This document shows positions 1,380 to 59,503 of a DNA stretch of 64,000 nt, one piece after another. Numbering within the stretch: the first letter of the stretch is position 1; each line of letters starts with the position of its first letter. The notes below the pieces were generated by a model. It saw only the letters and a program-made list of their open reading frames with translations, was not told where the DNA came from and did no database searches. Source of the DNA: Escherichia coli. GTDB taxonomy: Bacteria > Pseudomonadota > Gammaproteobacteria > Enterobacterales > Enterobacteriaceae. Location: the NCBI RefSeq assembly GCF_044324785.1, contig NZ_CP172127.1; one strand, written 5' to 3'. Made by a program: the position numbers and the translations under genes.

Positions 1380-4301
<2,922 letters not shown>

Positions 4302-16805: not shown

Positions 16806-16820
16806 TAATAGTGCACGGCT

Positions 16821-16916
16821 GCCGGATGCGGCGTGAACGCCTTATCCGCCTACATTTCGCCCGCAGGCCGTAGGCATGATAAGACGCGGCAGCGTCGTAT
16901 CAGGCATCTGCGCACG
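16821..16916. repeat. REP/BIME element between frmB and yaiL
   Basis: GCCGGATGCGGCGTGAACGCCTTATCCGCCTAC followed by a second REP-like unit. Confidence 0.8.
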
Positions 16917-18874: not shown

Positions 18875-18909
18875 GTAGGCCGGACAAGACGTTTACGCCG
18901 CATCCGGCA
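18875..18909. repeat. REP element between mhpE and mhpT
   Basis: GTAGGCCGGACAAGACGTTTACGCCGCATCCGGCA. Confidence 0.75.
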
Positions 18910-27494: not shown

Positions 27495-30607
<3,113 letters not shown>

Positions 30608-31912: not shown

Positions 31913-31977
31913 GCAATCAATGTCGGATGCGGCGCGAGCGCCTTATCCGACCAACATATCAGGACGGAATGATCGCA

Positions 31978-32589: not shown

Positions 32590-32606
32590 ATAAGCACTGA
32601 AATAAA

Positions 32607-32636
32607 TGTCGGATGCGCCACTGGGCACATCCGACA
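32607..32636. terminator. Hairpin between convergent lacA and cynX
   Basis: TGTCGGATGCGCC / GGCACATCCGACA, 13-bp stem with one mismatch and a 4-nt loop; REP-like. Confidence 0.45.
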
Positions 32637-32676
32637 ATAATTCACTCTTCCAATATCTGGCGAAACAAGCGTCGCA

Positions 32677-38604: not shown

Positions 38605-38767
38605 GAAATTCCCCCTTTTTGCTGTTTGAAACCCAAAAAATCCGCCGCATTCTATTCATCTGAAGATAAAAAGCAATCGTTTTCGTGGGGAAATATATTT
38701 TTTATATGAATGAGTGCAAAAAGGTGGGGGAAAAATTATCGGTGTAAAAACAGTGGGTAGCCATAAT

Positions 38768-38836
38768 AAGACGCGGTAAGCGTCGCATCAGGCATCGGCG
38801 CATGGTGTCGGATGCGCCAGGCGACGCATCCGACAA
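38768..38836. repeat. REP-like element(s) between prpE and codB
   Basis: GCGTCGCATCAGGCATCGGCGCATGGTGTCGGATGCGCCAGGCGACGCATCCGACA. Confidence 0.7.
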
Positions 38837-38840
38837 TAAC

Positions 38841-44594: not shown

Positions 44595-46181
44595 ATGGCA
44601 CATCCACCACGGCTGAATGACGACAAACCGGTTATCTGGACGGTATCTGTAACGCGGCTGTTCGAGCTGTTTCGCGATATCAGCCTCGAGTTTGATCATC
44701 TGGCGAACATTACCCCTATCCAGCTTGGCTTTGAAAAAGCGGTGACCTACATCCGCAAGAAACTGGCAAGCGAACGCTGTGACGCCATCATCGCTGCTGG
44801 CTCTAACGGCGCATATCTTAAAAGCCGCCTGTCAGTGCCAGTTATTTTGATTAAACCGAGCGGCTACGATGTGTTACAGGCACTGGCAAAAGCCGGAAAA
44901 CTCACCTCTTCTATCGGCGTTGTGACTTATCAGGAAACTATTCCGTCGCTGGTGGCGTTTCAAAAAACCTTTAATTTGCGCCTCGACCAACGTAGCTACA
45001 TTACCGAAGAAGACGCGCGCGGGCAGATTAACGAGCTGAAAGCTAACGGCACCGAAGCGGTGGTCGGCGCGGGGCTGATTACCGATTTGGCAGAAGAAGC
45101 CGGAATGACCGGAATTTTTATCTATTCCGCCGCCACCGTGCGCCAGGCATTCAGCGATGCGCTGGATATGACGCGCATGTCGTTACGCCATAACACTCAC
45201 AATGCCACCCGTAACGCCCTGCGTACTCGTTACGTGCTGGGCGATATGCTCGGTCAATCATCACAGATGGAACAGGTACGGCAGACTATTATGCTGTATG
45301 CCCGCTCCAGTGCGGCGGTGTTGATTGAAGGGGAAACGGGGACGGGCAAAGAGCTGGCGGCCCAGGCGATTCATCGGGAATATTTTGCCCGCCACGATGC
45401 GCGACAGGGCAAAAAGTCGCATCCGTTTGTTGCCGTCAACTGCGGGGCGATTGCCGAATCGCTGCTGGAAGCAGAGCTGTTTGGCTATGAGGAAGGGGCG
45501 TTTACCGGCTCGCGACGCGGAGGACGCGCCGGACTGTTCGAAATTGCCCACGGCGGCACGCTGTTTCTTGACGAGATAGGCGAAATGCCTCTGCCATTGC
45601 AGACTCGGCTGTTACGAGTGCTGGAAGAAAAAGAGGTCACTCGCGTCGGCGGGCATCAGCCTGTTCCGGTGGATGTGCGGGTCATTAGCGCCACCCACTG
45701 CAATCTGGAAGAAGATATGCGGCAAGGGAAGTTTCGCCGTGACCTGTTTTATCGGCTGAGTATTTTGCGTCTGCAATTGCCACCACTGCGCGAGCGGGTG
45801 GCGGATATTCTTCCGCTGGCGGAAAGCTTTTTGAAAGTGTCTCTGGCGGCGCTCTCCGCCCCGTTTTCTGCCGCATTACGCCAGGGATTACAGGCAAGCG
45901 AAACCGTGCTGGTGCACTACGACTGGCCGGGCAATATTCGTGAACTGCGCAATATGATGGAGCGACTGGCGCTGTTTTTAAGTGTGGAACCGACGCCGGA
46001 TTTAACGCCGCAATTTTTGCAGCTGCTACTGCCGGAGCTGGCGCGCGAGTCGGCGAAAATTCCCGCTCCACGCTTACTGACACCACAACAGGCACTGGAG
46101 AAATTTAAAGGCGATAAAACAGCAGCGGCGAATTATTTAGGCATAAGCCGGACGACGTTCTGGCGGCGGCTGAAAAACTGA
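44595..46181 (+). CDS. prpR: Sigma54-dependent activator of the prp operon, 528 aa
   Basis: AAA+ sigma54-interaction motifs ([14 protein letters not shown]); start placed at ATG 44595. Confidence 0.9.
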
Positions 46182-46184
46182 ACT

Positions 46185-46216
46185 GCCGAATGCAGCGCGA
46201 ACGCTTTATCCGGCAT
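46185..46216. repeat. REP element downstream of prpR
   Basis: GCCGAATGCAGCGCGAACGCTTTATCCGGCAT. Confidence 0.7.
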
Positions 46217-46281
46217 AAATTTCAATAGATGATGATCACCGATAAACTTACGCATCGGGGATGTTTACATAGGTTTCAGAA

Positions 46282-48049: not shown

Positions 48050-48865
48050 CTAAAGAGTGTAGCGGATTTTAACGTGCTTATTTACAGGATAATATCTGTC
48101 ACCTAATTCCTGCACTCTATTAGATATCCATTCATTTAATCGCGCATCATCTCTGTATGTTTTTACGTCCAGAACAGAGAGCAATAACCTCACCAGTGAT
48201 TCAGGAAAAACAGGGTAGATATTTTTTAAGTGTAATAATAATCCATGCGCAAGCGCCTGCTTAATGGGCGCGTCGGTCTCCGGGATAGACGACATTTCGC
48301 TAAGCCACTTTTCCACATGCATACACTCTTTCCCTTTAGGGAAAAGTCTCAGCAAAGGCATATGGTGTTCAAGAAGAATACATTTGCAATCTGTTCGCAC
48401 TGAATCGATAAACTGCACTAATTTCTTAAGCCCGGTAAAGCGTCCAGCCTGCACGTTTGCTTTAATATCAAGAAACGCATCATCCTGGTCATATACCCAA
48501 ACTGTCCCTTTTTGATTTTCAAGTATGCGAAAAACAAACTTAACCGGGTGATCAGGGTAATCCATCCAGTCATAAAACCCAGGGAAATCATTAAACTGCA
48601 CATTTATGGTGAGTGCGTTATCGTCTGACCACTCACAGTCTCGTACGGCAGCCATGAGATGAATGAGTTTGTCGTCATCGACTAAATCATCACGACAATC
48701 ATAAGGATAATCATAATATTGTTTAATCAAAACCTTGAATATATCGACACAGGAGACCAGGGAGCTTTTGATATCCTCTGATAACTGATTGTTTTTAACC
48801 GTATTAAGTATGCTTTGTTGCGTATATGGCATCAAATTATTGTGCGGAGCTTTTAATGATATCAT
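48050..48865 (-). CDS. yahL: Uncharacterised protein YahL, 271 aa, low-GC gene
   Basis: 271-aa ORF with no domain I recognise; markedly AT-rich coding sequence. Confidence 0.75.
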   Translation of the reverse strand: MISLKAPHNNLMPYTQQSILNTVKNNQLSEDIKSSLVSCVDIFKVLIKQYYDYPYDCRDDLVDDDKLIHLMAAVRDCEWSDDNALTINVQFNDFPGFYDWMDYPDHPVKFVFRILENQKGTVWVYDQDDAFLDIKANVQAGRFTGLKKLVQFIDSVRTDCKCILLEHHMPLLRLFPKGKECMHVEKWLSEMSSIPETDAPIKQALAHGLLLHLKNIYPVFPESLVRLLLSVLDVKTYRDDARLNEWISNRVQELGDRYYPVNKHVKIRYTL

Positions 48866-49107
48866 CGCGATCTCTCTTAAATAAAAATAAACGTCGCAGA
48901 TAATAAAGCCCTGATTAAACCAGGCACTATCAGAAATCGCTCATAACGAACGTGTGAAGTATTGTGTACTGGAGGGAGTTAATTTAACAATTTGAATTTA
49001 CGTTATAGGTTTTACTGCTACTTTGATATTATTTCGCTCTCCTTAACTAAAAAGTTAAGTGGAGAGCGAAGTTAATATGTTAAACCACAGGGTATTTATT
49101 AATTTTT

Positions 49108-50157
49108 TCAGTCTGTTAGTGTGCGATTATCGATAACAAAACGATATTTCACATCTCCTCGCAGCATTCGCTCATAGGCTTCATTAATTTGATCGGCCCG
49201 AATCATCTCTATATCAGCCACGATGCCATGTTCGGCGCAAAAATCGAGCATCTCCTGTGTTTCTGGAATGCCGCCAATCATAGAACCGGCTATCGCACGG
49301 CGTTTCATGATCAGGTTGAAAACTTCCGGTGATTTATGCGGTGTCGCAGGCGCACCAACCAGCGTCATGGTGCCATCACGCTTCAGCAAGGTGGTAAAAT
49401 CGTCGAGATTATGTGGCGCAGCTACTGTATTCAAAATGAAATCGAAACTCTTGAGATGAGCCGCCATCTCATCGGCATTGCGTGAGTTAACAACTTCATC
49501 GGCCCCCAGGGCTTTTGCCGCTTCGCGTTTTGCCTCAGAAGTGGTAAATGCCACCACATGCGCCCCCATCGCGTGGGCCAGCTTAATCCCCATATGTCCC
49601 AGACCGCCGATGCCAACCACGCCCACTTTTTTACCCGGCCCGGCCTGCCAGTGACGTAGCGGCGAGTATGTGGTGATCCCTGCACACAATAAAGGAGCCA
49701 CCGCCGCCAGCTGCTCTTGCGGGTGACGAATACGCAGAACATATCGCTCATGAACGACGATCTGTTGTGAGTAGCCGCCCAGCGTATGGCCCGGTTCGTC
49801 CGGCGTCGGCGAGTTATAGGTGCCGGTCATGTGATCACAGTAGTTTTCCAGCCCGTCTTCACACTCTTCGCAATGTTTACAACTGTCGACAATACAGCCG
49901 ACACCGACCAGATCGCCCGGCGCATATTTTTCTACCTGATCACCAACGGCTACCACGCGCCCTACAATTTCATGGCCCGGCACGCAGGGATAAACCGTCC
50001 CCGCCCACTCGGAACGGACCTGGTGGAGATCGGAATGGCAGACGCCACAGTAAGCGATTTCGATTTTGACATCATTCGGTCCCGGTTCACGCCGGGTGAT
50101 ATCCATCGGTTCAAGTGGTTGTTTAGCGGAATATGCACCAACAGCTTTGATCTTCAT
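49108..50157 (-). CDS. yahK: NADPH-dependent aldehyde reductase (zinc-type ADH), 349 aa
   Basis: Motifs GHEIVG and GVVGIGGLGH. Confidence 0.9.
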   Translation of the reverse strand: MKIKAVGAYSAKQPLEPMDITRREPGPNDVKIEIAYCGVCHSDLHQVRSEWAGTVYPCVPGHEIVGRVVAVGDQVEKYAPGDLVGVGCIVDSCKHCEECEDGLENYCDHMTGTYNSPTPDEPGHTLGGYSQQIVVHERYVLRIRHPQEQLAAVAPLLCAGITTYSPLRHWQAGPGKKVGVVGIGGLGHMGIKLAHAMGAHVVAFTTSEAKREAAKALGADEVVNSRNADEMAAHLKSFDFILNTVAAPHNLDDFTTLLKRDGTMTLVGAPATPHKSPEVFNLIMKRRAIAGSMIGGIPETQEMLDFCAEHGIVADIEMIRADQINEAYERMLRGDVKYRFVIDNRTLTD

Positions 50158-50243
50158 TGTGTTTACTCCTGATTAGCTATGTGTATTTGGCGACGCCTGA
50201 TATGTCATCGCGGCAAAACGCGTCCATTGAATATAGCCAATAT

Positions 50244-51230
50244 TTAAACCACCCGATCCAGCCCCAACATGCCGCGAGCCTGAATGAAACAGAGCAGCAA
50301 CGTTCCCCATAAGGCCATCGTCAGGTAGGGGCTTATACCGAGAATATTGAAGCCGCTTTCAATAATTTGCAGAAGAAACAGCGCCAGCACCATACCAATT
50401 ATCCGCCCGCTGCCGCCGTCCGGATTAACCCCGCCGAGTACTGCCGCGAGGATTGACACCAGCAAGTACGATTCGCCATAAGAGGCCTTAGCCGAGTTGA
50501 GTTTCGACATCATCAAAAATGCCGCTACCGCACAAAGCAAGGCGGAAATGACATACACCCATATCAGCACCCGACGAGTGTTAATACCGGAGTAAAGTGT
50601 TGCTCGTTCGTTAGAACCAATCAGATAAATGGCTTTACCGAGCGGCGTTTTCTCCAGCAATATCCACAGTCCCAGCGCCACTGCGGTAAACAACCACATC
50701 GGTAGCGGAATACCGAACCACTGTGCATGATTCAACCACAGCACCCATGAGGGATAATTGGCAATGGCGCTACCACCTGTCACCAGAATATTTATCCCTT
50801 TGAGCAACGTCATCATCCCAAGCGTTGCAAGAATTGGCGACACTCGAATACCAGCAATCAATACGCCGTTACATAAACCGATTATCACCGCCGCGCCAGC
50901 GCCCGCCAGTAACGTAGCGACAACCGTAGCAATACCCGGTGGATACTGAGTCGCCACCCACGCCATCACCAGTGAACAGGCGTTAGCAGTGGCTATAATT
51001 GACAAGTTAATGCCACCGCAAAGCATGGTCACCGCCATAGCCAACGCCAGAATGCCCAGCACGGGCATTTGCGAAGCGACGGACTGGAAATTACTTATCG
51101 ACCAGAAAATCTCCGGCATAGTAATGCTGAAGGCGGCAACAGTTAGCACCAGCAGGCCGATCAAGTAAAACTCAACGTTATTACGCCACGATTTTTTCAT
51201 AGCAGACTCCGGTTCTGATGCTGACTCCAC
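50244..51230 (-). CDS. Sugar-type ABC transporter permease (RbsC/LsrD-like), 328 aa
   Basis: Polytopic hydrophobic protein of the monosaccharide-permease type; overlaps the upstream permease by 34 nt. Confidence 0.75.
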   Translation of the reverse strand: MESASEPESAMKKSWRNNVEFYLIGLLVLTVAAFSITMPEIFWSISNFQSVASQMPVLGILALAMAVTMLCGGINLSIIATANACSLVMAWVATQYPPGIATVVATLLAGAGAAVIIGLCNGVLIAGIRVSPILATLGMMTLLKGINILVTGGSAIANYPSWVLWLNHAQWFGIPLPMWLFTAVALGLWILLEKTPLGKAIYLIGSNERATLYSGINTRRVLIWVYVISALLCAVAAFLMMSKLNSAKASYGESYLLVSILAAVLGGVNPDGGSGRIIGMVLALFLLQIIESGFNILGISPYLTMALWGTLLLCFIQARGMLGLDRVV

Positions 51231-52168
51231 GCCGTGGCGCTAATGCTGGCAACGATGATGATGCCGGTGATCAATGTTTGCCAGTAAGACGAGACTCCCA
51301 ATAAATTTAGCCCGTTTTGCATTACTGCCAACAACACCACGCCGAGCAAAGTACCGGTTAACGTGCCGCGCCCGCCGAGCAAACTAGTGCCGCCAAGCAC
51401 CACCGCAGCCAGTACTGTCAGCTCATAACCCAGAAGAGAATCGGGGGCGACAGTCATCACCGTCCACGACTGCACTACACCCGCAGCACCAGACATCAAT
51501 CCCATATAGCCGTAGACGAAAAGTTGCAGTTTCAGCACGCTAAAGCCGATGCGACTGGCTGATTCACGGTTCCCGCCAAGGGCATAAATTTTGCGCCCTA
51601 CACTGGTGAAATTCATGATAAACGCTGTTAGCAGCACCACCGTAATCATGGCGATCAGCGGTAGACCAAGGCCATAGTCATAGCCATCAGCATCGGTGTA
51701 CTTGAACAACATTACCCCCTGCTCAAACCACGGCGGAAAGTCGTACAGCCACACACCTTTACTCAACCATAACAGCAGGCCATAGAAAATATTCAGCGTC
51801 GAGATAGTGATGATGATAGAAGGCACCCGTAGGCGATTAACCAGTAAGGCGTTTATTAAGCCAAGTAAAATGCCGATGCCGCCCGCCAGTGCAAACGCGA
51901 CAGCGAAGTTGCCACCAATTTTTTGCAGCAACAGCACCATGCCGTATTGCGCAATGATGGTCATTGCCGGAAACGAAATATCAATTCCACCGGAAATCAA
52001 CACCACAAACAAACCACAGGCGAGAATAGTCAACATGGCATAGTTATTGGCGAGATCGTACAAATTACCGAATGTCAGAAACTCGTCGCTGCGCCAGGCA
52101 AGGCCGACAAACAGCCCCACAATCAGTAATGCCAGCCAGAATTCATGACGTTTTTTCAGTTCAGCCAT
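51197..52168 (-). CDS. Sugar-type ABC transporter permease (RbsC/LsrC-like), 323 aa
   Basis: Polytopic hydrophobic protein; 8-nt overlap with the ATPase gene. Confidence 0.75.
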   Translation of the reverse strand: MAELKKRHEFWLALLIVGLFVGLAWRSDEFLTFGNLYDLANNYAMLTILACGLFVVLISGGIDISFPAMTIIAQYGMVLLLQKIGGNFAVAFALAGGIGILLGLINALLVNRLRVPSIIITISTLNIFYGLLLWLSKGVWLYDFPPWFEQGVMLFKYTDADGYDYGLGLPLIAMITVVLLTAFIMNFTSVGRKIYALGGNRESASRIGFSVLKLQLFVYGYMGLMSGAAGVVQSWTVMTVAPDSLLGYELTVLAAVVLGGTSLLGGRGTLTGTLLGVVLLAVMQNGLNLLGVSSYWQTLITGIIIVASISATAWSQHQNRSLL

Positions 52169-53660
52169 TTACCACCTCCGCAATCCTGGCCTGAGAACTG
52201 CTGTCAGGCAGGAAGCTATGGGTGATCTGACCTTTCTGCATTACCAAAATCCGGTGGCTTTGATACCACGCTTCTTCAATTTCATCGCAGATCATCAATA
52301 CCGCAATGCCATGAGCCGCCAGATCGCTGATAATGCCGTATATTCCTGCTTTGTTGGCGATATCAACACCGACTGTCGGGCTATCGAGAATCAACAGTCG
52401 TGGCCCAATCGCCAGCCATTTGGCGATCGATACTCGCTGCGCGTTACCCCCGGAAAGCGTACTCACCGGGAGATGTGGGTCAGAGACTTTGATGGTCAAT
52501 GCCTTGATTAGCCTGTCCACCAGGTCACGCACTTTAGCTTCACTCAGAAAGCCGAAGCGATCTTTTACCTTGTGAAAAACAGTGCTAATGATGTTGTCTT
52601 CAATAGATTGCGCCATCACCAAACCGCGCGACATGCGATCTTCCGAAACATAACCAATACCGTGGCGGATGGCGTCCTGGTTACTATGCAGTGTAACCGG
52701 CTGACCGTTGATGAGGATCTCACCAGCATCCGGTCGGGTCATACCAAACAGACTCAGACATAATTCCGTGCGCCCCGCACCAAGCAGGCCAACAATCGAC
52801 ACCACTTCGCCCGCTTCCACCCGCAAGTTAATATTTTGATATTCCCCATGACGACTTAAATTACGCACCTCCAGCACTGGGGTGCTGGATTTTCCCTGCC
52901 ACAACTCTCGTACCTGATATTCGAACTCCTGGCCGGTCATCAGAAAACTGAGTTGTTTTGTGGTCATCTCTGCGGCCGGAAAGGTCCCGACCAGCTCACC
53001 ATCTTTCAGCACTGAAATACGGTCGGAAACTTCCATCACTTCTTCCAGACGATGACTGACGAAGACCACGCAGATCCCGCGTTCCCGCAATTGATGCACC
53101 ACCTGTAATAACCCTTGCACTTCCTGATGGGTCAGCGAAGCGGTTGGTTCATCCATCACGATCAACCGTGCGTCCTGCGCCAGTGCACGGCAAATTGCCA
53201 CCAGCTGACAGCGGGCAATTGAAAGCTCAGAAACGAGCGTATCCAGAGGCAATGTGACGTTAATACTGGTCATTGCCGCCTGCGCCACCTCACGCAGACG
53301 ACGTCGGTTAACAAACAGACCGTGGTGATAGTGATTCACGGCGATATTCTCCCAGACACTCAGGTTAGGAAATAAAGAGAGGTCCTGATAAATCACCTGA
53401 ATCCCCTGCGCCACCGAAGCGGCGGGTGTCAGCTTTGACCAGTTTTTCCCACCAAGCGTAATTTCCGCCCCCTCATCCGGGCGATAAACACCGGACATAA
53501 TTTTAATCAACGTCGATTTACCACAGCCGTTTTGCCCGGCAAGGCAGTGCACCTCACCCGACATAAAGTCGAGAGAAACATCGCGCAGCGCTCGCGTGGC
53601 ATGAAACGTTTTGTTGATATGACGAAGGGAAAGGAAGGTTTCCATAGCATCCCCTGGCAA
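52161..53660 (-). CDS. Two-domain ABC transporter ATP-binding protein (RbsA/LsrA-like), 499 aa
   Basis: Two Walker A motifs (GQNGCGKST and GLLGAGRTE) and signature LSGGNAQRV. Confidence 0.85.
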   Translation of the reverse strand: MPGDAMETFLSLRHINKTFHATRALRDVSLDFMSGEVHCLAGQNGCGKSTLIKIMSGVYRPDEGAEITLGGKNWSKLTPAASVAQGIQVIYQDLSLFPNLSVWENIAVNHYHHGLFVNRRRLREVAQAAMTSINVTLPLDTLVSELSIARCQLVAICRALAQDARLIVMDEPTASLTHQEVQGLLQVVHQLRERGICVVFVSHRLEEVMEVSDRISVLKDGELVGTFPAAEMTTKQLSFLMTGQEFEYQVRELWQGKSSTPVLEVRNLSRHGEYQNINLRVEAGEVVSIVGLLGAGRTELCLSLFGMTRPDAGEILINGQPVTLHSNQDAIRHGIGYVSEDRMSRGLVMAQSIEDNIISTVFHKVKDRFGFLSEAKVRDLVDRLIKALTIKVSDPHLPVSTLSGGNAQRVSIAKWLAIGPRLLILDSPTVGVDIANKAGIYGIISDLAAHGIAVLMICDEIEEAWYQSHRILVMQKGQITHSFLPDSSSQARIAEVVNG

Positions 53661-53693
53661 TAAGAATCGGGGCTTTCGCCCCGAAGAAATGGA

Positions 53694-54680
53694 TTAATAA
53701 AGTGAGTCGATATTGTCTTTGTTGACCAGTAATACCTTATGGAAACGGATAATTCGCTTATCCATATCTACGTCGGCCTTACCGAGATTCTCCATTTCTA
53801 ATCCAGGTTTGATCTCTTCACCCTTCAGCAACGTGCTGGCGACGGCCGCGAGTGCGTAACCTGCAGAGGCCGGATCGTAAGTAATCCCTTCGGTGATATC
53901 ACCACTTTTAATCAGTGATGCCGCCTGTGAAGGGATCATCATGCCATAGACTGCGACTTTATTTTTCGCCCGTTTCTCTTTCACTGCACGTCCCGCGCCA
54001 ATCGGACCGTTTGAACCAAAGGAGACAACCGCTTTCAAGTCAGGATAGGTTTTCATGAGGTCCAGTGTGGTACGACGTGAGTCATCCACACTCTCGGCAA
54101 CCGGCATGCGGCGGGTAACTTCATGCATATCCGGGTAATGCTCTTTCTGGTATTTCACCAGCAAGTCAGCCCATAAGTTATGCTGCGGCACGGTCAAACT
54201 ACCCACGTAAATCACATAGCCGCCCTTGCCACCCATGCGTTTCGCCATATGCTCAACATATTCAGCGGCAAATTTTTCGTTATCAATGATTTCGATATCC
54301 CAGTTAGCACTTGGCTGACCGGGGGATTCGTTGGTCAGAACCACAATTCCGGCATCTCGCGCTTTTTTGAATACCGGTTCCAGCACGTTGGCATCGTTTG
54401 GCACAATTGTAATTGCATTAACCTTACGGGCGATTAAATCCTCAATAATTTTAACTTGTTGCGGAGCATCAGTACTTGAAGGCCCCACCTGTGACGCATT
54501 AACACCAAAGGCTTTACCCGCCTCAACCACACCTTCGCCCATGCGATTAAACCACGGCATACCATCGACTTTAGAGATATTCACCACGACTTTTTCCGCT
54601 GCCTGGAGCGGCGCAGAAATTAGCGCAGCGCCTAATAACAGCGAAGACACCATATTGATAACAAAACGTTTATTCATCAT
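53694..54680 (-). CDS. Periplasmic sugar-binding protein (LsrB/RbsB-type), 328 aa
   Basis: Signal peptide MMNKRFVINMVSSLLLGAALISAPLQA; C-terminus …FHKVLLVNKDNIDSLY resembles the LsrB C-terminus as I recall it. Confidence 0.7.
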   Translation of the reverse strand: MMNKRFVINMVSSLLLGAALISAPLQAAEKVVVNISKVDGMPWFNRMGEGVVEAGKAFGVNASQVGPSSTDAPQQVKIIEDLIARKVNAITIVPNDANVLEPVFKKARDAGIVVLTNESPGQPSANWDIEIIDNEKFAAEYVEHMAKRMGGKGGYVIYVGSLTVPQHNLWADLLVKYQKEHYPDMHEVTRRMPVAESVDDSRRTTLDLMKTYPDLKAVVSFGSNGPIGAGRAVKEKRAKNKVAVYGMMIPSQAASLIKSGDITEGITYDPASAGYALAAVASTLLKGEEIKPGLEMENLGKADVDMDKRIIRFHKVLLVNKDNIDSLY

Positions 54681-54930
54681 TTCAGCCTCATTGCAGGGTA
54701 GTCAGGAAGTGTTCGCCCAAATTAGCGCGCTGGAGAGAATAAGAATTTTCGAATATTTTTATGCAGAATAAACAGCCCTATTTCAGGCAGCTATTAAAAA
54801 TTTGGTTATAAATATGGACAAAACGGGCAGCAATAATAAGTGTGACACTCATCACGTAAAAAATAGCAAAATAAACAAAATTAGCGATATTTTATGTTTG
54901 TGAGCTTATTTCGCGTAGAAAAATAGTTAT

Positions 54931-55341
54931 CTACACAACGTCAATAAGGGCATATTCTTCAAAGATAACGTCCATTTCGGGTGAATAGCATCCTTCTGCC
55001 TGGAAAAAACGACGGTGTTCATTACGCCAATATTCAAGACTGAGGTCACCTTCACCTTCCTTACGGGCAAGCTCCGCGGTGACATCAGAAAAGCGCAGTA
55101 AATGCAGGCCAATCACTCTGATAACACAGACAGGCTCACCACGGCTATTTTCTACAATCTTATACTCACCAATCATCGGAAATGCGTTGTCTTCAATACA
55201 TCCCGCCAGCGAACCACAGGAAGCTGTTTTAACACCTGTCGCAATCAACGTTGCGAGGTGATCGGCCAACGCTGCTGAATCGCCAAAAGTACAAAAGGAA
55301 GCATGGGGATATTTTTGTGAGATTTTTTCTTTTATGGTCAT
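54931..55341 (-). CDS. Small cytoplasmic protein, possible ASCH/PUA-like domain, about 136 aa
   Basis: Segment TGVKTASCGSL resembles the ASCH G-x-K-T motif; start (55341 versus 55374) uncertain. Confidence 0.45.
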   Translation of the reverse strand: MTIKEKISQKYPHASFCTFGDSAALADHLATLIATGVKTASCGSLAGCIEDNAFPMIGEYKIVENSRGEPVCVIRVIGLHLLRFSDVTAELARKEGEGDLSLEYWRNEHRRFFQAEGCYSPEMDVIFEEYALIDVV

Positions 55342-55637
55342 GAGAATATTTTCGCGATTACGGAAAAAAATCACATCTTAATTACTGTAGATAACCATCA
55401 GCAAGAGGATCATTGGTTTTCCTATGTTTAATCTTTTTTATCCGAAGCAGGTCACATTTATGGCTTGATAAATACCTTTGTTAAAACTCACTTTTGTGTA
55501 TTTCTCTCAAATAATCCCCTGGAAATTATGCCGGGAGATTATAAAGTTCAGGATCATTCATTAACAAACCATTCCCGCCCCACTCCCTGGGGCTTAAATC
55601 TCTTACGATTCACCGTTGCAGACATATCAAATGCGCA

Positions 55638-57020
55638 TCAACCTGCCACACTCCCCCACACCAGTTGCCCTTTATGGAACGTCGCCGTTCTCGGCGAGAT
55701 ACGCGCCACCGCCTCGGCGGAACAGGAGGCGTCCACCAGCACAAAGCTGGCGTCATCCTGCGCTTTAGGCCACACACGCTCGCCTTTTTCGTTGAGCGGC
55801 AATACATCGCCAGTGGCTAAAAACAGCGAACGGGAGAGGTTCTGTTCGTTAGGACGAATATAGAGCTGCGCGTAGAGATTGGCTTTTTCCAGCATGTCGC
55901 CCAGGCCGTAAGGCGACCAGTGGTCGATAACGCTGTCGGTGCCGGTCATCACTTTTACGCCTTTGTCGTGCAGTTGTTTAAGCGGCATATGTAGCGTGCC
56001 GATCGGCACCGTCGAGGCGATAGAAATTTGCTGCGCCGCCATCCGGTGCGCCAGTTCATCTACCTGTTGCTCATTGAGCGTTGCCAACGCAAAGGCGTGA
56101 CTGATGGTCAGCTTGCCCTTCAGTTGCGGCGTTTTCTCCACTGTTTCAACCATATAATTGATGGCCGCCACGCCTGCCGGAGTGGTTTCATGCAGGTGAA
56201 TATCGACGCCTTTGTCGTAGTCCAGCGCAATCTGGAACATGGTGTCGAGGGATTTTTCCATCGCGCCATCAACACTGGTTGGGTCCAGCCCGCCGACGTA
56301 ATGCGCCCCTGCCTGCATCGCTTCGCGCATTAAGGGTTCCGATTTCGACAGCAGCAAACCGTGCTGCGGGAAGGCGACGATTTCACACTCGAAGCCCGCC
56401 TGACGTCGCGCCAGCACCGCCTGCAAATTTTGCAGATTTTTCAGGCCGGAAACCGGTTCGATATTGCAGTGGCTGCGGGCAATGGTAGTGCCTTTCGACT
56501 GCAATAAATCGATCAGTTTTTCCGCCCTTTCCTGAGTGTACGGTTGCAACTCCGGCAGCATTTTCTGCTCGAGTTTGATCATGTCCTGGATGGTGGTGCC
56601 TGCCGGGCGATTGAGCGAGCGCCACGGCCCGCCGTAAAAGGTTTTGTCGAGATGAATATGCATGTCGCGGGTGGTGGGCAGCATCAGCTTACCGCCAGCG
56701 TCATAGTGCGGCAGCGTGGCGTCCGGATGCTGCTTGTTCTCGCGCAGGGCAACAATTTTGCCGTTCTGAATCTCTACGGTCTGGTGCGCCGTGCGGGTCT
56801 GTACCGCCACACCGTTTTCGTAGTCAAAACCGGTTTCCAGCAGCACGTTGTCGAGATAGTAGTGCGGGTCAGTGATTTTCATGGTGTTATTCGCGTCGCA
56901 GTTTAGGGTGCCAGAGACTGCCGCATGGGCGAGCGGCACAGAGGTACCAAACAGCGCGGCGGCGGTGACCATCTTACCGCTCTGGCTCAGAAACTCACGG
57001 CGGCTATTGTTTTTTTTCAT
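55638..57020 (-). CDS. yahJ: Amidohydrolase-superfamily deaminase with Tat signal peptide, 460 aa
   Basis: Twin-arginine motif SRREFLSQ followed by a hydrophobic stretch and AHA; metal-dependent hydrolase features (HIHLDKT, HLHE). Confidence 0.85.
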   Translation of the reverse strand: MKKNNSRREFLSQSGKMVTAAALFGTSVPLAHAAVSGTLNCDANNTMKITDPHYYLDNVLLETGFDYENGVAVQTRTAHQTVEIQNGKIVALRENKQHPDATLPHYDAGGKLMLPTTRDMHIHLDKTFYGGPWRSLNRPAGTTIQDMIKLEQKMLPELQPYTQERAEKLIDLLQSKGTTIARSHCNIEPVSGLKNLQNLQAVLARRQAGFECEIVAFPQHGLLLSKSEPLMREAMQAGAHYVGGLDPTSVDGAMEKSLDTMFQIALDYDKGVDIHLHETTPAGVAAINYMVETVEKTPQLKGKLTISHAFALATLNEQQVDELAHRMAAQQISIASTVPIGTLHMPLKQLHDKGVKVMTGTDSVIDHWSPYGLGDMLEKANLYAQLYIRPNEQNLSRSLFLATGDVLPLNEKGERVWPKAQDDASFVLVDASCSAEAVARISPRTATFHKGQLVWGSVAG

Positions 57021-57029
57021 CTTACGTCC

Positions 57030-57980
57030 TTACGTTTTAATAATATGTGTGCCTGTTTCGCCGCGCAGCGCCGCAGGCAGGCATTCCGGCGTGGTGATAA
57101 TCACTTCTTTGCCGCCCTGCTCCAGGAACGTCAGGCTGGCGATGATTTTTGGCAACATGCTGCCAGGCGGGAAATGCCCTTCCTGCATATAGCGGGTCAT
57201 GGTGGCAATATCCACCCGATCCAGCGCCTGCTGCTGCGGCTTGCCAAAGTGAATACACACTTTTTCGACGCCGGTGGTGATCACCAGAATGTCGGCGTGA
57301 ATTTCACGGGCCAATAGCGCGGTAGAGAGATCTTTGTCGATAACCGCGTCCACGCTTTGGTAATCCCCCGCTTCACTGCACACCACCGGAATTCCACCGC
57401 CGCCCGCGCCAATCACCACAAAACCTTGTTGGATCAGCGCCTTAATGGCAGGTGCTTCGACAATACGTTTCGGTTCCGGCGAGGCGACCACGCGGCGATA
57501 GCCCCGTCCGGCATCTTCAACAAAACGCCAGTCAGGATTTGCCTTTTGTAATTCGTCACGCTGGCTGTCACTAAAGAATGCGCCGATGGGCTTGGTGGGA
57601 TGAGCAAATCCCGGATCGTTTTTATCCACTTCCACCTGAGTCACCACGGTGACGGCTTTTTTCTCGCCGTGACGCGCCAGCCGGTTGTTCAGCGCCTGTT
57701 GGATCAGATAGCCAATGCCGCCTTGCGTATCCGCCACACAGTTCGCCAGCGGCGTTAAGGGCAGCCCTTCGCGCTCGTGGGCAATCTCCGCGCGGCGTAA
57801 ATCCAAACCGACCTGCGGCCCGTTGCCGTGGGTCAGCACAATGTCGTAATCGGAAGCCAGCATTTCCAGCACCGTATCGGCCACGGCTTTCACCGCCTCC
57901 GCCTGATGCTCAATCGACTGGCTGGCGTTATCTTTGATAATGCTGTTGCCACCAATGGCAACGACCACAAGTTCTTTCAT
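57030..57980 (-). CDS. yahI: Carbamate kinase-like protein, 316 aa
   Basis: Amino-acid-kinase fold motifs (VVAIGGNS, ITHGNGPQVG). Confidence 0.85.
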   Translation of the reverse strand: MKELVVVAIGGNSIIKDNASQSIEHQAEAVKAVADTVLEMLASDYDIVLTHGNGPQVGLDLRRAEIAHEREGLPLTPLANCVADTQGGIGYLIQQALNNRLARHGEKKAVTVVTQVEVDKNDPGFAHPTKPIGAFFSDSQRDELQKANPDWRFVEDAGRGYRRVVASPEPKRIVEAPAIKALIQQGFVVIGAGGGGIPVVCSEAGDYQSVDAVIDKDLSTALLAREIHADILVITTGVEKVCIHFGKPQQQALDRVDIATMTRYMQEGHFPPGSMLPKIIASLTFLEQGGKEVIITTPECLPAALRGETGTHIIKT

Positions 57981-58028
57981 GTTGTTATGTCCGCTACAGA
58001 GGGTGATGGGGTTATGACCAACGCCAGA

Positions 58029-58204
58029 CTGCCTGATGCGCTACGCTTATCAGGCCTAGAATTCTCGTGCCATTCGTAGGCCGGATAAGGCGTTCACGCC
58101 GCATCCGGCAATGGTGACAAATGCCTGATGCGCTACGCTTATCAGGCCTACAGATTCTCGCGCCACTCGTAGGCCGGATAAGGCGTTCACGCCGCATCCG
58201 GCAA
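58029..58204. repeat. BIME: tandem pair of about 95-bp units, each with two REP sequences
   Basis: Two near-identical units containing GCCTGATGCGCTACGCTTATCAGGCCTA and GTAGGCCGGATAAGGCGTTCACGCCGCATCCGGCA. Confidence 0.85.
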
Positions 58205-58225
58205 AGACAACGCGCACTTTGCAGG

Positions 58226-59503
58226 TCAGACGCCGTAACGTTCGCACCAGCCAAGAATGGCTTTTTCGAAGCAGGCGAATGGTGGATGCACAATGCCCGC
58301 GCCAATCATGCCGATGCCCGCATCTTTATGAGCGATGGCGGTGTTGATCACTGGCAGAATGCCGCTACTGCCCACGCGGGTGATGTCGATTGCCGACGGC
58401 ACGCCCATAAAACCGAGCAGCGGAATGGTGACGTTGGGGTTTTCGCCGAGAGTGATTTCGCGCATCTGACGGGAGAAATCGATAGCTTCTTCCACCGTAC
58501 CGCCCACCAGCGCGACGATTGCAGGCGCGGTCGCCATAGCAAATCCGCCAATACCGTAGGTTTCGGTGATGGCACTGTCGCCAATATCCAATCCAGAATC
58601 TTCCGGCTTATAACCGGCAAACATCGGGCCGATCACCTGCTGCGCCGGACCGGAGAAGTAGTCGCTGCTGGCGACAAACTCAAACACTTCGCGCTGTTGC
58701 TCGACGGAATAGCCCGCCTGAATAATCCCCGGCGTCAGCGCCTGAATCAGCAACGTAGTCCCGGCGTTATTGCGGTTATGGCATTCATCGCCCATATGCA
58801 GCGCCTGCGCCAGCATCAAGCGCAGATCGATCTCGCCGATAATTTTCATTGCGTCACGCAGCATTGGCCCCTGCACATCGCGCATCCAGTTGAGGCGGTC
58901 AATCACGCTCTGGTCGTTAGCGCCCATACGCAAAATCTTCGCCATCTGCTCGCTCATGTTGGTATAAGCGATGTTGCCGTAGGTTTTGTTTTTTACGATG
59001 TGCATAAACATCGAGGCCGAGGTAACACCCGCCATCGATCCCACACAGTCGTGTTCGTGGCACGGCGAGAAGGTGATCTCCCCGGAGGCCGCCAGGTCAG
59101 CCGCCTCGTCGAGATCTTTCGCCAGTCCTTCGAACACCAGCGCTCCGGTGACCGCGCCTTTCATCGCGCCGCACATTTTTTCCCAGGTGATCGGCGGCCC
59201 GGCGTGAAGAATGGTTTTCGGCGTCATGCCCGGCACCACGTTAATCGCCTGATCAAAACCAATCAGCACCGGATGTGACTGAATAATGCGCTCCAGAGCC
59301 TGCTGATTAGCGGCGGCGATTTTGTCTGCCAGCGGCGAATCGGCAATGTTATCCAGCGCCTGCACCACCTGCATATTGCCCTGCCCCGGCGGCGTCCAGT
59401 CGAGTTGGGTCACTTCTACATGCTGCTTTTTCAGGTCATCGCTAAACATGGCGATGCCGACGTTAATAACGTTCAACGGTTGGCTAAACAGTGACTGGCT
59501 CAT
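58226..59503 (-). CDS. yahG: DUF1116-family protein YahG, 425 aa
   Basis: Start ATG overlaps the yahF stop (ATGA); I recall the K-12 protein as longer, so the N-terminus is uncertain. Confidence 0.75.
   Translation of the reverse strand: MSQSLFSQPLNVINVGIAMFSDDLKKQHVEVTQLDWTPPGQGNMQVVQALDNIADSPLADKIAAANQQALERIIQSHPVLIGFDQAINVVPGMTPKTILHAGPPITWEKMCGAMKGAVTGALVFEGLAKDLDEAADLAASGEITFSPCHEHDCVGSMAGVTSASMFMHIVKNKTYGNIAYTNMSEQMAKILRMGANDQSVIDRLNWMRDVQGPMLRDAMKIIGEIDLRLMLAQALHMGDECHNRNNAGTTLLIQALTPGIIQAGYSVEQQREVFEFVASSDYFSGPAQQVIGPMFAGYKPEDSGLDIGDSAITETYGIGGFAMATAPAIVALVGGTVEEAIDFSRQMREITLGENPNVTIPLLGFMGVPSAIDITRVGSSGILPVINTAIAHKDAGIGMIGAGIVHPPFACFEKAILGWCERYGV

What the first reader, a model, noticed from the sequence alone, without database searches (positions are those of the whole stretch)
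58029..58204. Tandemly duplicated BIME between yahI and yahG, with further REP copies at six other intergenic sites
Two near-identical units of about 95 bp, each with a pair of inverted REP sequences, sit between yahI and yahG. Other REP-type palindromes lie between frmB and yaiL, mhpT and mhpE, lacY and lacA, lacA and cynX, codB and prpE, and downstream of prpR. These likely act as mRNA stabilisers, terminators or gyrase/IHF sites and explain several spurious ORF calls.
Basis: partly seen in the sequence, partly recalled or inferred. Interest (0 to 1): 0.2.

Follow-up and report, generated by a model that had tools for sequence, protein, structure and literature searches.

The report
Known REP/BIME-2 repeat between yahG and yahI
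The repeat is an ordinary, already catalogued E. coli intergenic palindromic repeat cluster (a BIME-2, the K-12 element REP23/"yahH"), here with two units, whose unit number varies from zero to five between strains.

Summary
At 58030-58204 there are two ~93-bp tandem units (95% alike). Each unit is a Z2-type REP and an inverted Y-type REP, and these match the published consensus sequences exactly or with one mismatch. This is a textbook BIME-2. It lies in the 245-bp spacer between yahG and yahI, which are co-directional on the minus strand.

The element is already known. In K-12 it is REP23, with four units, and the dubious ORF yahH lies inside it.

Unit number at this site varies across E. 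coli: 0, 1, 2, 3, 4 and 5 units, all confirmed by sequence. In an evenly spaced sample of 57 genomes the counts were 7, 24, 6, 2, 14 and 4. The same site is occupied in E. albertii, E. whittamii and Pseudocitrobacter.

Five of the six other REP sites are clear matches. The lacA-cynX hairpin is only marginal.

By analogy with REP325 (yjdM-yjdN), the likely role is stabilising upstream mRNA, partly attenuating downstream transcription, and binding gyrase on DNA. None of this is shown for this locus. No IHF consensus site lies in or beside any REP element. Interest is low and the element is already known.

The parts
58030..58059 (+). Z2-type REP of unit 1 (TGCCTGATGCGCTACGCTTATCAGGCCTAG). The last base is G instead of the consensus C.
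   Evidence: 29/29 match to the Z2 consensus, E 1.2e-11. One mismatch over the full length. RNA hairpin -12.9 kcal/mol.
58060..58075 (.). Short tail-to-tail linker of unit 1, 16 nt (AATTCTCGTGCCATTC). This is the S-type linker position.
   Evidence: Read from the sequence. The S-linker definition is in PMC3333891.
58076..58110 (-). Y-type REP of unit 1 (TGCCGGATGCGGCGTGAACGCCTTATCCGGCCTAC on the - strand).
   Evidence: 35/35 match to the Y consensus, E 5e-15. RNA hairpin -21.3 kcal/mol, z -5.3.
58111..58121 (.). Head-to-head linker between the two units (ATGGTGACAAA). It is conserved at this locus in other strains.
   Evidence: the same linker (aatggtgacaaat, counted with its flanking bases) recurs between units in K-12, O157 and the outgroups.
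58122..58151 (+). Z2-type REP of unit 2.
   Evidence: 30/30 match, E 3e-12.
58152..58168 (.). Short tail-to-tail linker of unit 2, 17 nt (AGATTCTCGCGCCACTC). It is identical to the second-unit linker of K-12.
58169..58203 (-). Y-type REP of unit 2. It is the first REP met by the yahG-to-yahI transcript, 22 nt after the yahG stop codon.
   Evidence: 35/35 match, E 5e-15. Distance to the stop codon read from the sequence.
58079..58148 (+). Match to Rfam RF02564 (naRNA4). It covers the head-to-head REP pair made of the Y of unit 1 and the Z2 of unit 2.
   Evidence: 78 bits against a gathering score of 59.5 on the + strand. The mRNA (-) strand scores 53.9 bits, below the gathering score.
58056..58247 (-). 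63-aa GTG ORF in the YahH reading frame, running through the repeat. It is most likely a spurious call.
   Evidence: It is annotated as a hypothetical protein in strain N3. Its length and start change with unit number, and it is absent where the repeat is absent.
58226..59503 (-). yahG, the upstream gene of the pair. Here it is 425 aa because of a 141-bp in-frame deletion.
57030..57980 (-). yahI (carbamate kinase family), the downstream gene of the pair.
16820..16906 (.). REP pair between the convergent genes frmB and yaiL: Y (16820-16853, +, with a one-base deletion in the tail) and Z1 (16870-16906, -), 16 nt apart.
   Evidence: E 1.5e-11 and 6e-11. Sequence.
18875..18909 (-). Single Y-type REP between mhpE and mhpT.
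   Evidence: 32/35 match, E 8e-10.
31920..31955 (+). Degenerate Y-like REP between lacY and lacA.
   Evidence: 24/26 match, E 2.4e-6. Sequence.
32607..32638 (+). Palindrome between the convergent genes lacA and cynX. It is only marginally REP-like.
   Evidence: Consensus match E 0.11. Covariance model score 18.9 bits, rough E 0.004.
38755..38796 (-). Z1-like REP just downstream of prpE, in the prpE-codB spacer. A second, weaker hairpin lies at 38816-38838.
   Evidence: 26/29 match, E 1.4e-4. The second hairpin scores 14 bits.
46183..46217 (+). Degenerate Y-type REP starting 2-3 nt after the prpR stop codon, between the convergent genes prpR and yahO.
   Evidence: 27/31 match, E 9e-6. Gene ends.

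Best explanation
The feature is a two-unit BIME-2: a tandem array of Y and Z2 repetitive extragenic palindromes. It sits in the spacer between yahG and yahI. It is the same element that is catalogued as REP23 in E. coli K-12 and that carries the doubtful ORF yahH.

Shown here: its sequence identity, its architecture, and its 0-5 unit polymorphism at one fixed site.

Inferred from work on other REP clusters: it is transcribed as part of a yahD-to-yahJ message on the minus strand. There each REP folds into a stable hairpin. The hairpins block 3'-to-5' exonucleases, which protects the upstream yahEFG message. They also cause partial, Rho-assisted attenuation, which lowers read-through into yahIJ. 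On DNA, the Y units are preferred DNA gyrase binding and cleavage sites.

Unit number probably changes by unequal recombination or replication slippage between the 93-bp units, or through the REP-associated transposase TnpA(REP).
For: Identity and architecture
- Period-93 array, 1.9 copies, 95% identity.
- Exact or near-exact matches to the Y and Z2 consensus in alternating inverted orientation, with 16-17-nt and 13-nt linkers.
- This fits the published BIME-2 definition (PMC3333891).

Repeat family
- The 1.5-kb query containing the element matches a median of 32 or more places per genome in 5425 of 5426 E. coli genomes.

Hairpins
- Y folds at -21.3 kcal/mol and Z2 at -12.9 kcal/mol. A whole unit folds at about -38 kcal/mol.
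- Across ten REPs of the window, 95% of cells are paired and 4 pairs show compensatory changes.

Context
- Both flanking genes are on the minus strand.
- The scan found no intrinsic terminator with a T-run and no promoter-like site on the minus (coding) strand in the spacer.

Known element
- K-12 has 4 units here, with yahH inside.
- Neuhaus 2016 equates yahH with REP23 and describes five repeat blocks in EHEC (PMC4765031). This matches my count of 5 units in O157:H7.

Polymorphism
- 0, 1, 2, 3, 4 and 5 units were confirmed by sequence.
- Spacer lengths in an evenly spaced sample of 57 genomes give 7, 24, 6, 2, 14 and 4.
- The zero-unit alleles are found in 164 + 488 of 5426 genomes.

Functional analogy
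- REP325, a cluster between the tandem genes yjdM and yjdN, stabilises the upstream mRNA and attenuates the downstream gene about 8-10-fold, partly through Rho. REP-containing tandem pairs genome-wide show raised upstream/downstream expression ratios (bioRxiv 10.64898/2026.03.23.713779).
- Gyrase cleavage sites are over-represented in BIME-2 and favour Y units (PMC6379681).
Against: - No expression, RNA-end or gyrase data for this locus were available. The gyrase paper's held supplementary files do not mention yahG, yahH or yahI.
- The REP literature stresses that effects depend on context, so the size and even the direction of any effect here is unknown.
- About 12% of E. coli genomes lack the element at this site, and unit number varies freely. 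Any function is therefore dispensable.
- In this strain yahG carries a 47-aa in-frame deletion. The operon may be decaying.
Confidence: 0.9

Rival explanations
1. The repeat encodes a real small protein, YahH. The frame running through the units is translated into a repeat protein whose length follows unit number.
For: - An open frame runs through the repeat on the mRNA strand. It gives a 63-aa GTG ORF here, 106 aa in K-12 and 98 aa in O157.
- Neuhaus 2016 reported ribosome footprints over the EHEC ORF X002 (= yahH): RPKM 56, coverage 0.61 (PMC4765031).
- A 93-nt unit is a multiple of three, so the frame can persist across units.
Against: - Start codon, length and end all differ between strains.
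- The ORF cannot exist in the zero-unit alleles (about 12% of genomes). It shrinks to a remnant in the one-unit alleles, which are the commonest class in the sample.
- One-base differences in linker length (16 vs 17 nt) shift the frame between units.
- The start of the window's ORF lies inside yahG.
- yahH was removed from some annotations because of its structure.
- The conservation seen is that of the REP DNA consensus shared by hundreds of copies, not that of a protein.
Confidence: 0.05
2. The element is a gene for a nucleoid-associated noncoding RNA of the naRNA4 type. That RNA would work with HU to condense the chromosome.
For: - Rfam RF02564 (naRNA4) matches 58079-58148 on the + strand at 78 bits, above the gathering score of 59.5.
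- Qian 2015 proposed this role for the REP325 RNA (PMC4550694).
Against: - The Rfam model is simply a Y-plus-Z head-to-head REP pair, so a similar REP pair would be expected to match.
- The above-threshold match is on the strand antisense to the yah genes. The mRNA strand scores 53.9 bits, below threshold.
- A 2026 study found that REP325 and naRNA4 do not measurably compact the nucleoid and that REP-REP contacts are not HU-dependent.
Confidence: 0.03
3. The element has no function at this site. It is a selfish or neutral repeat that persists and changes in unit number by recombination, and that is tolerated in a poorly expressed operon.
For: - Presence or absence and 0-5 unit variation occur with no sign of constraint.
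- The element has been replaced by an unrelated 49-bp filler in 12% of genomes.
- yahG itself is damaged in this strain.
- TnpA(REP) cleaves and recombines BIMEs in vitro (PMC3333891).
Against: - The site has stayed occupied across E. albertii, E. whittamii, Escherichia sp. E1V33 and Pseudocitrobacter.
- The Y and Z2 sequences here are perfect consensus copies.
- Once transcribed, hairpins of -13 to -21 kcal/mol will affect RNA decay and read-through whether or not selection acts on that effect.
Confidence: 0.3

Closest known systems
REP23 / yahH locus of E. coli K-12 MG1655 (yahG-yahI spacer), equivalent to ORF X002 of EHEC EDL933
   Same: - Same genomic site and the same left flank.
- Same Z2 / S-linker / Y units and the same 13-nt inter-unit linker.
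- The linker of the window's second unit is identical to that of K-12 unit 2.
   Different: - Two units here, against four in K-12 and five in O157:H7.
- The right junction differs: 22 nt to the yahG stop codon here, against 12 nt in K-12.
- The repeat-encoded ORF is 63 aa here, against 106 aa in K-12.
REP325 (yjdM-yjdN), the model REP cluster and the source of naRNA4
   Same: [quoted passage not shown]
- It lies between two co-directional genes of one operon.
- The Rfam model derived from it matches the window element.
   Different: - Six repeats against two.
- A different locus and different linkers.
- Its terminator and stabiliser roles were shown experimentally. Nothing has been measured for the yah element.
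BIME-1 (Y + Z1 with the long L linker that carries an IHF site)
   Same: Both are built from inverted REP pairs.
   Different: - The yah element uses Z2, not Z1.
- It has 16-17-nt linkers and no IHF consensus.
- It is tandemly repeated, whereas BIME-1 occurs as single copies.

Membership tests
REP (repetitive extragenic palindrome) of E. coli | A 30-40-nt imperfect palindrome that matches the Y, Z1 or Z2 consensus and carries the conserved GTAG/CTAC tetranucleotide at the foot of the stem. | tested here: met
   All four elements match the Y or Z2 consensus at 29/29 to 35/35. CTAC is present in three. The fourth reads CTAG.
REP (repetitive extragenic palindrome) of E. coli | Extragenic location and high copy number in the genome. 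| tested here: met
   All ten clear REPs of the window lie between genes. The region containing the element matches a median of 32 or more places per genome in 5425 of 5426 genomes.
REP (repetitive extragenic palindrome) of E. coli | Hairpin-forming potential, with a mismatch or internal loop in the stem. | tested here: met
   The predicted fold has 7 or 8 pairs, then a mismatch or internal loop, then 4 pairs, at -21.3 kcal/mol for Y. 95% of cells are paired, with compensatory changes in 4 pairs.
BIME-2 | Composed of Y and Z2 REPs in alternating inverse orientation. | tested here: met
   The order is Z2 forward, Y reverse, Z2 forward, Y reverse. The definition is in PMC3333891.
BIME-2 | The REP and its inverted partner are separated by a short (S) linker, not the long L linker with an IHF site. 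| tested here: met
   The linkers are 16 and 17 nt. No IHF consensus lies in the element. I could not compare the linker with the published S, s, l and r motif sequences, because the figures are not held.
BIME-2 | Occurs as multiple tandem copies, with copy number varying between strains at a given locus. | tested here: met
   Two units here. Other genomes have 0 to 5 units at the same site.
BIME-2 | Bound and cleaved by DNA gyrase in vivo. | not testable with these tools
   This is shown for a subset of BIME-2 elements (PMC6379681). The held supplementary files of that paper do not mention this locus.
naRNA4 (Rfam RF02564) | Sequence and structure match at or above the family's gathering score. 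| tested here: met
   78 bits against 59.5 on the + strand. The mRNA strand scores 53.9 bits, below the threshold.
naRNA4 (Rfam RF02564) | Expressed as a discrete RNA that associates with HU and the nucleoid. | not testable with these tools
   No expression data are available. The proposed nucleoid function is itself disputed.
BIME-1 | Y plus Z1 REPs with a long L linker that carries an IHF site, present as a single copy. | tested here: not met
   The element has Z2, not Z1. Its linkers are short, it has no IHF consensus, and it is tandemly repeated.

The most novel reading that the evidence does not exclude
Unit number at this one site (0 to 5 in natural isolates, with two alternative distances of 12 or 22 nt from the yahG stop codon) could act as a natural, heritable dial. 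It would set the yahEFG to yahIJ expression ratio differently in different E. coli lineages. This is the kind of strain-level regulatory tuning that the 2026 REP325 study proposes but has not demonstrated at any polymorphic locus.
Probability: 0.25. Interest if true: 0.35.

Novelty: already known. Interest (0 to 1): 0.08.

Why it matters
The finding matters little on its own. It is a correct identification of a catalogued repeat (REP23, a BIME-2).

Its practical value is for annotation. It explains why yahH-like "hypothetical proteins" of varying length are called inside the yahG-yahI spacer in many genomes.

The allelic series of 0-5 units at one fixed site, in an otherwise conserved operon, could serve as a ready-made natural test set. 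It would allow a test of whether the number of REP units tunes mRNA stability and read-through.

Tried and rejected
- IHF binding: a scan for WATCAANNNNTTR found 7 sites in the window, none in or beside a REP element. I rejected IHF binding for these elements.
- Intrinsic terminator: no hairpin followed by a T-run lies in the spacer. If the element terminates transcription, it does not do so as a classic intrinsic terminator.
- Gyrase data for this locus: the held supplementary files of the Topo-Seq paper do not mention yahG, yahH, yahI or REP23.
- Further REPs in the window: a covariance model built from the ten clear REPs, run with filters off, found only the lacA-cynX hairpin (18.9 bits) and the second codB-prpE hairpin (14 bits) outside the training set. 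A 15-nt consensus match inside lacZ (29368-29382) is a partial palindrome in coding sequence and is not a REP.
- The first fuzzy-regex annotation of REP units under-counted them. I replaced it with a Hamming-distance scan.
- The literature search for the rule about REPs close to stop codons and trans-translation did not retrieve the primary paper. That point rests on my own recollection (Liang and Deutscher, about 2015) and is not used as evidence.
- The RefSeq feature table for K-12 returned no repeat_region features. The name REP23 therefore comes from PMC4765031 only.

Full report
**What is in the sequence.**

The window is E. coli chromosome running from tauC to yahB. The closest complete genome is strain N3, at 99.9% identity over window 48580-58653.

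Tandem Repeats Finder reports one strong array in the whole window, at 58030-58204. It has period 93, 1.9 copies, 95% matches and score 320. Direct-repeat search gives a 51-nt pair at 96% and a 29-nt pair at 100%, spaced 93 and 92 nt apart.

Each unit contains two palindromes in inverted orientation. I compared them with the Y, Z1 and Z2 REP consensus sequences, which I supplied from memory. They agree with the description in PMC3333891. The results were:
- 58030-58059 and 58122-58151 (+) match Z2 at 29/29 and 30/30.
- 58076-58110 and 58169-58203 (-) match Y at 35/35 each.
- E-values range from 1e-11 to 5e-15.

**Genomic context.**

The array fills most of the 245-bp spacer between yahI (57030-57980) and yahG (58226-59503). 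Both genes are on the minus strand, so transcription runs yahG, repeat, yahI. The first REP on the message starts 22 nt after the yahG stop codon. The simple scan found no intrinsic terminator and no promoter-like site on the minus (coding) strand in the spacer.

**What it is.**

Ton-Hoang et al. define BIME-2 as follows: Y and Z2 REPs, the REP and its inverted partner separated by a short S linker, occurring as multiple tandem copies, with copy number that varies between strains at a given locus (PMC3333891). Every part of this definition that sequence can test is met here.

The element is also known individually.
- K-12 MG1655 has four such units in the same spacer, with the ORF yahH (b0322) lying inside them.
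- Neuhaus et al. equate yahH with REP23 and describe five repeat blocks in EHEC (PMC4765031). I counted five units (ten REPs) in O157:H7 strain H2495.

By direct sequence inspection:

| Units | Strains |
|---|---|
| 0 | SMS-3-5, MS6198, GPEC859 |
| 1 | EC958, CE12-1 |
| 2 | the window, N3, 042, Q5 |
| 3 | E2348/69 |
| 4 | K-12 MG1655 |
| 5 | O157:H7 H2495 |

I then searched with only the flanking 400 bp of each gene. This returns the spacer length in each genome. An evenly spaced sample of 57 full-length hits gave lengths that fall into discrete classes, corresponding to 0, 1, 2, 3, 4 and 5 units in 7, 24, 6, 2, 14 and 4 genomes.

In the zero-unit alleles the BIME is replaced by a single-copy 49-bp filler with its own small hairpin. 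Its two sequence variants occur in 164 and 488 of 5426 genomes. Together that is 12%, which agrees with the sample.

The two units of the window are not a fresh duplication. Unit 2 has the same linker as K-12 unit 2. Unit 1 differs from K-12 unit 1 at three positions, while the two window units differ from each other at four positions plus an indel.

The site was already occupied outside E. coli:
- E. albertii has two units.
- E. whittamii has two units, one of them truncated.
- Escherichia sp. E1V33 has at least three and a half units; the locus ends before the array does.
- Two Pseudocitrobacter genomes carry a BIME at the same position.

**The other REP sites.**

- frmB-yaiL: Y plus inverted Z1, 16820-16906.
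- mhpE-mhpT: Y, 18875-18909.
- lacY-lacA: degenerate Y, about 31920-31955.
- prpE-codB: Z1-like, about 38755-38796.
- Just after prpR: degenerate Y, 46183-46217.

I built a covariance model from these ten REPs. Over the alignment, 95% of cells are paired and four pairs show compensatory changes. I ran the model over the whole window with filters off.

Apart from the training sequences, only two hairpins stand out. The lacA-cynX palindrome (32605-32641) scores 18.9 bits, rough E 0.004. A second hairpin in the prpE-codB spacer scores 14 bits. The two resemble each other (TGTCGGATGCGCC...CATCCGACAATAA) and are REP-like at best. No other REPs were found, and all clear REPs are intergenic.

**How it most likely works.**

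Shown here:
- The REPs on the mRNA strand fold into stable hairpins. Y folds at -21.3 kcal/mol (z -5.3) and Z2 at -12.9 kcal/mol.
- A whole unit can alternatively form one long hairpin of about -38 kcal/mol.
- The whole spacer folds at -106 kcal/mol, against -89 for shuffled sequences.

Inferred from other loci:
- In REP325, a comparable cluster between the tandem genes yjdM and yjdN, the repeat stabilises the upstream message. It also lowers downstream expression about 8-10-fold, in a partly Rho-dependent way.
- Gyrase cleavage sites are enriched in BIME-2 elements and prefer Y units (PMC6379681).
- TnpA(REP) cleaves and recombines BIMEs in vitro. That activity, or plain unequal recombination between 93-bp units, would explain the changes in unit number.

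None of these activities has been measured at the yah locus. The gyrase paper's held supplementary files do not mention it.

**Rival readings.**

*A real YahH protein.* An open frame does run through the repeat (63 aa here), and ribosome footprints were reported for the EHEC version. However, the start, length and end differ in every strain examined. The ORF is absent in zero-unit strains and reduced to a remnant in one-unit strains. One-base differences in linker length also break the frame. I rate this at about 5%.

*A naRNA4-type nucleoid RNA.* The Rfam naRNA4 model matches at 78 bits. That model is simply a head-to-head REP pair. The above-threshold match is antisense to the yah genes, and the nucleoid role of naRNA4 has been contradicted.

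*No selected function.* This remains quite possible, given the free presence/absence and copy-number variation and the damaged yahG in this strain.

**Verdict.**

The only mildly useful product of this check is the 0-5 unit allelic series at one fixed site. It could be used to test whether REP number tunes expression.

Noticed in passing
window 58226-59503 (junction at about 58643-58653): yahG is 425 aa here, against 472 aa in strains N3, 042 and K-12. It has a 141-bp in-frame deletion that removes YahG residues 285-331. The junction lies in a short GGnCCGG microhomology. Identity to strain N3 drops from 99.9% to the left of the junction to 99.0% to the right, which suggests a recombination breakpoint.
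   Followed up: partly
window 50158-55645: The 5.5 kb between yahK and yahJ carries a sugar/AI-2-type ABC transporter (two permeases, an ATPase and a binding protein) and an ASCH-domain gene, as in strain N3. Strains A10 and 042 have only one small hypothetical gene at this position.
   Followed up: partly
L006 1082-1175 (SMS-3-5), L016 501-595 (MS6198), L017 501-595 (GPEC859): In about 12% of E. coli genomes (164 + 488 of 5426) the BIME at this site is replaced by a single-copy 49-bp filler. The filler has its own hairpin (CCCTTCTCCCCAAAAGGGAGAAGG). It is a replacement, not a clean empty site. Part of its left end (GAGTRAGGTT) also appears in E. whittamii next to a BIME.
   Followed up: partly
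L011 about 3700-4180 (E. albertii NBRC 107761): The two BIME units of E. albertii arose by a 162-bp tandem duplication that also copies the last ~45 nt of yahG, including its stop codon. This is a different event from the internal 93-bp unit amplification seen in E. coli.
   Followed up: no
window 32607-32638 and 38816-38838: Two hairpins share the sequence TGTCGGATGCGCC...CATCCGACAATAA. They score only marginally against a REP model (18.9 and 14 bits). They may be a decayed or separate REP-like subfamily at the 3' ends of genes.
   Followed up: partly
window 58204-58225, compared with L003 (K-12) and L009 (O157): The junction between the BIME and yahG has two haplotypes. The window, 042 and EC958 have a 22-nt spacer to the yahG stop codon. 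K-12, O157, CE12-1 and a Pseudocitrobacter MAG have a 12-nt spacer. From memory, REPs within about 15 nt of a stop codon have been reported to stall ribosomes, so the two haplotypes might differ in their effect on YahG. I did not verify this.
   Followed up: no
window 46181-46217: The degenerate REP after prpR begins only 2-3 nt after the prpR stop codon.
   Followed up: no
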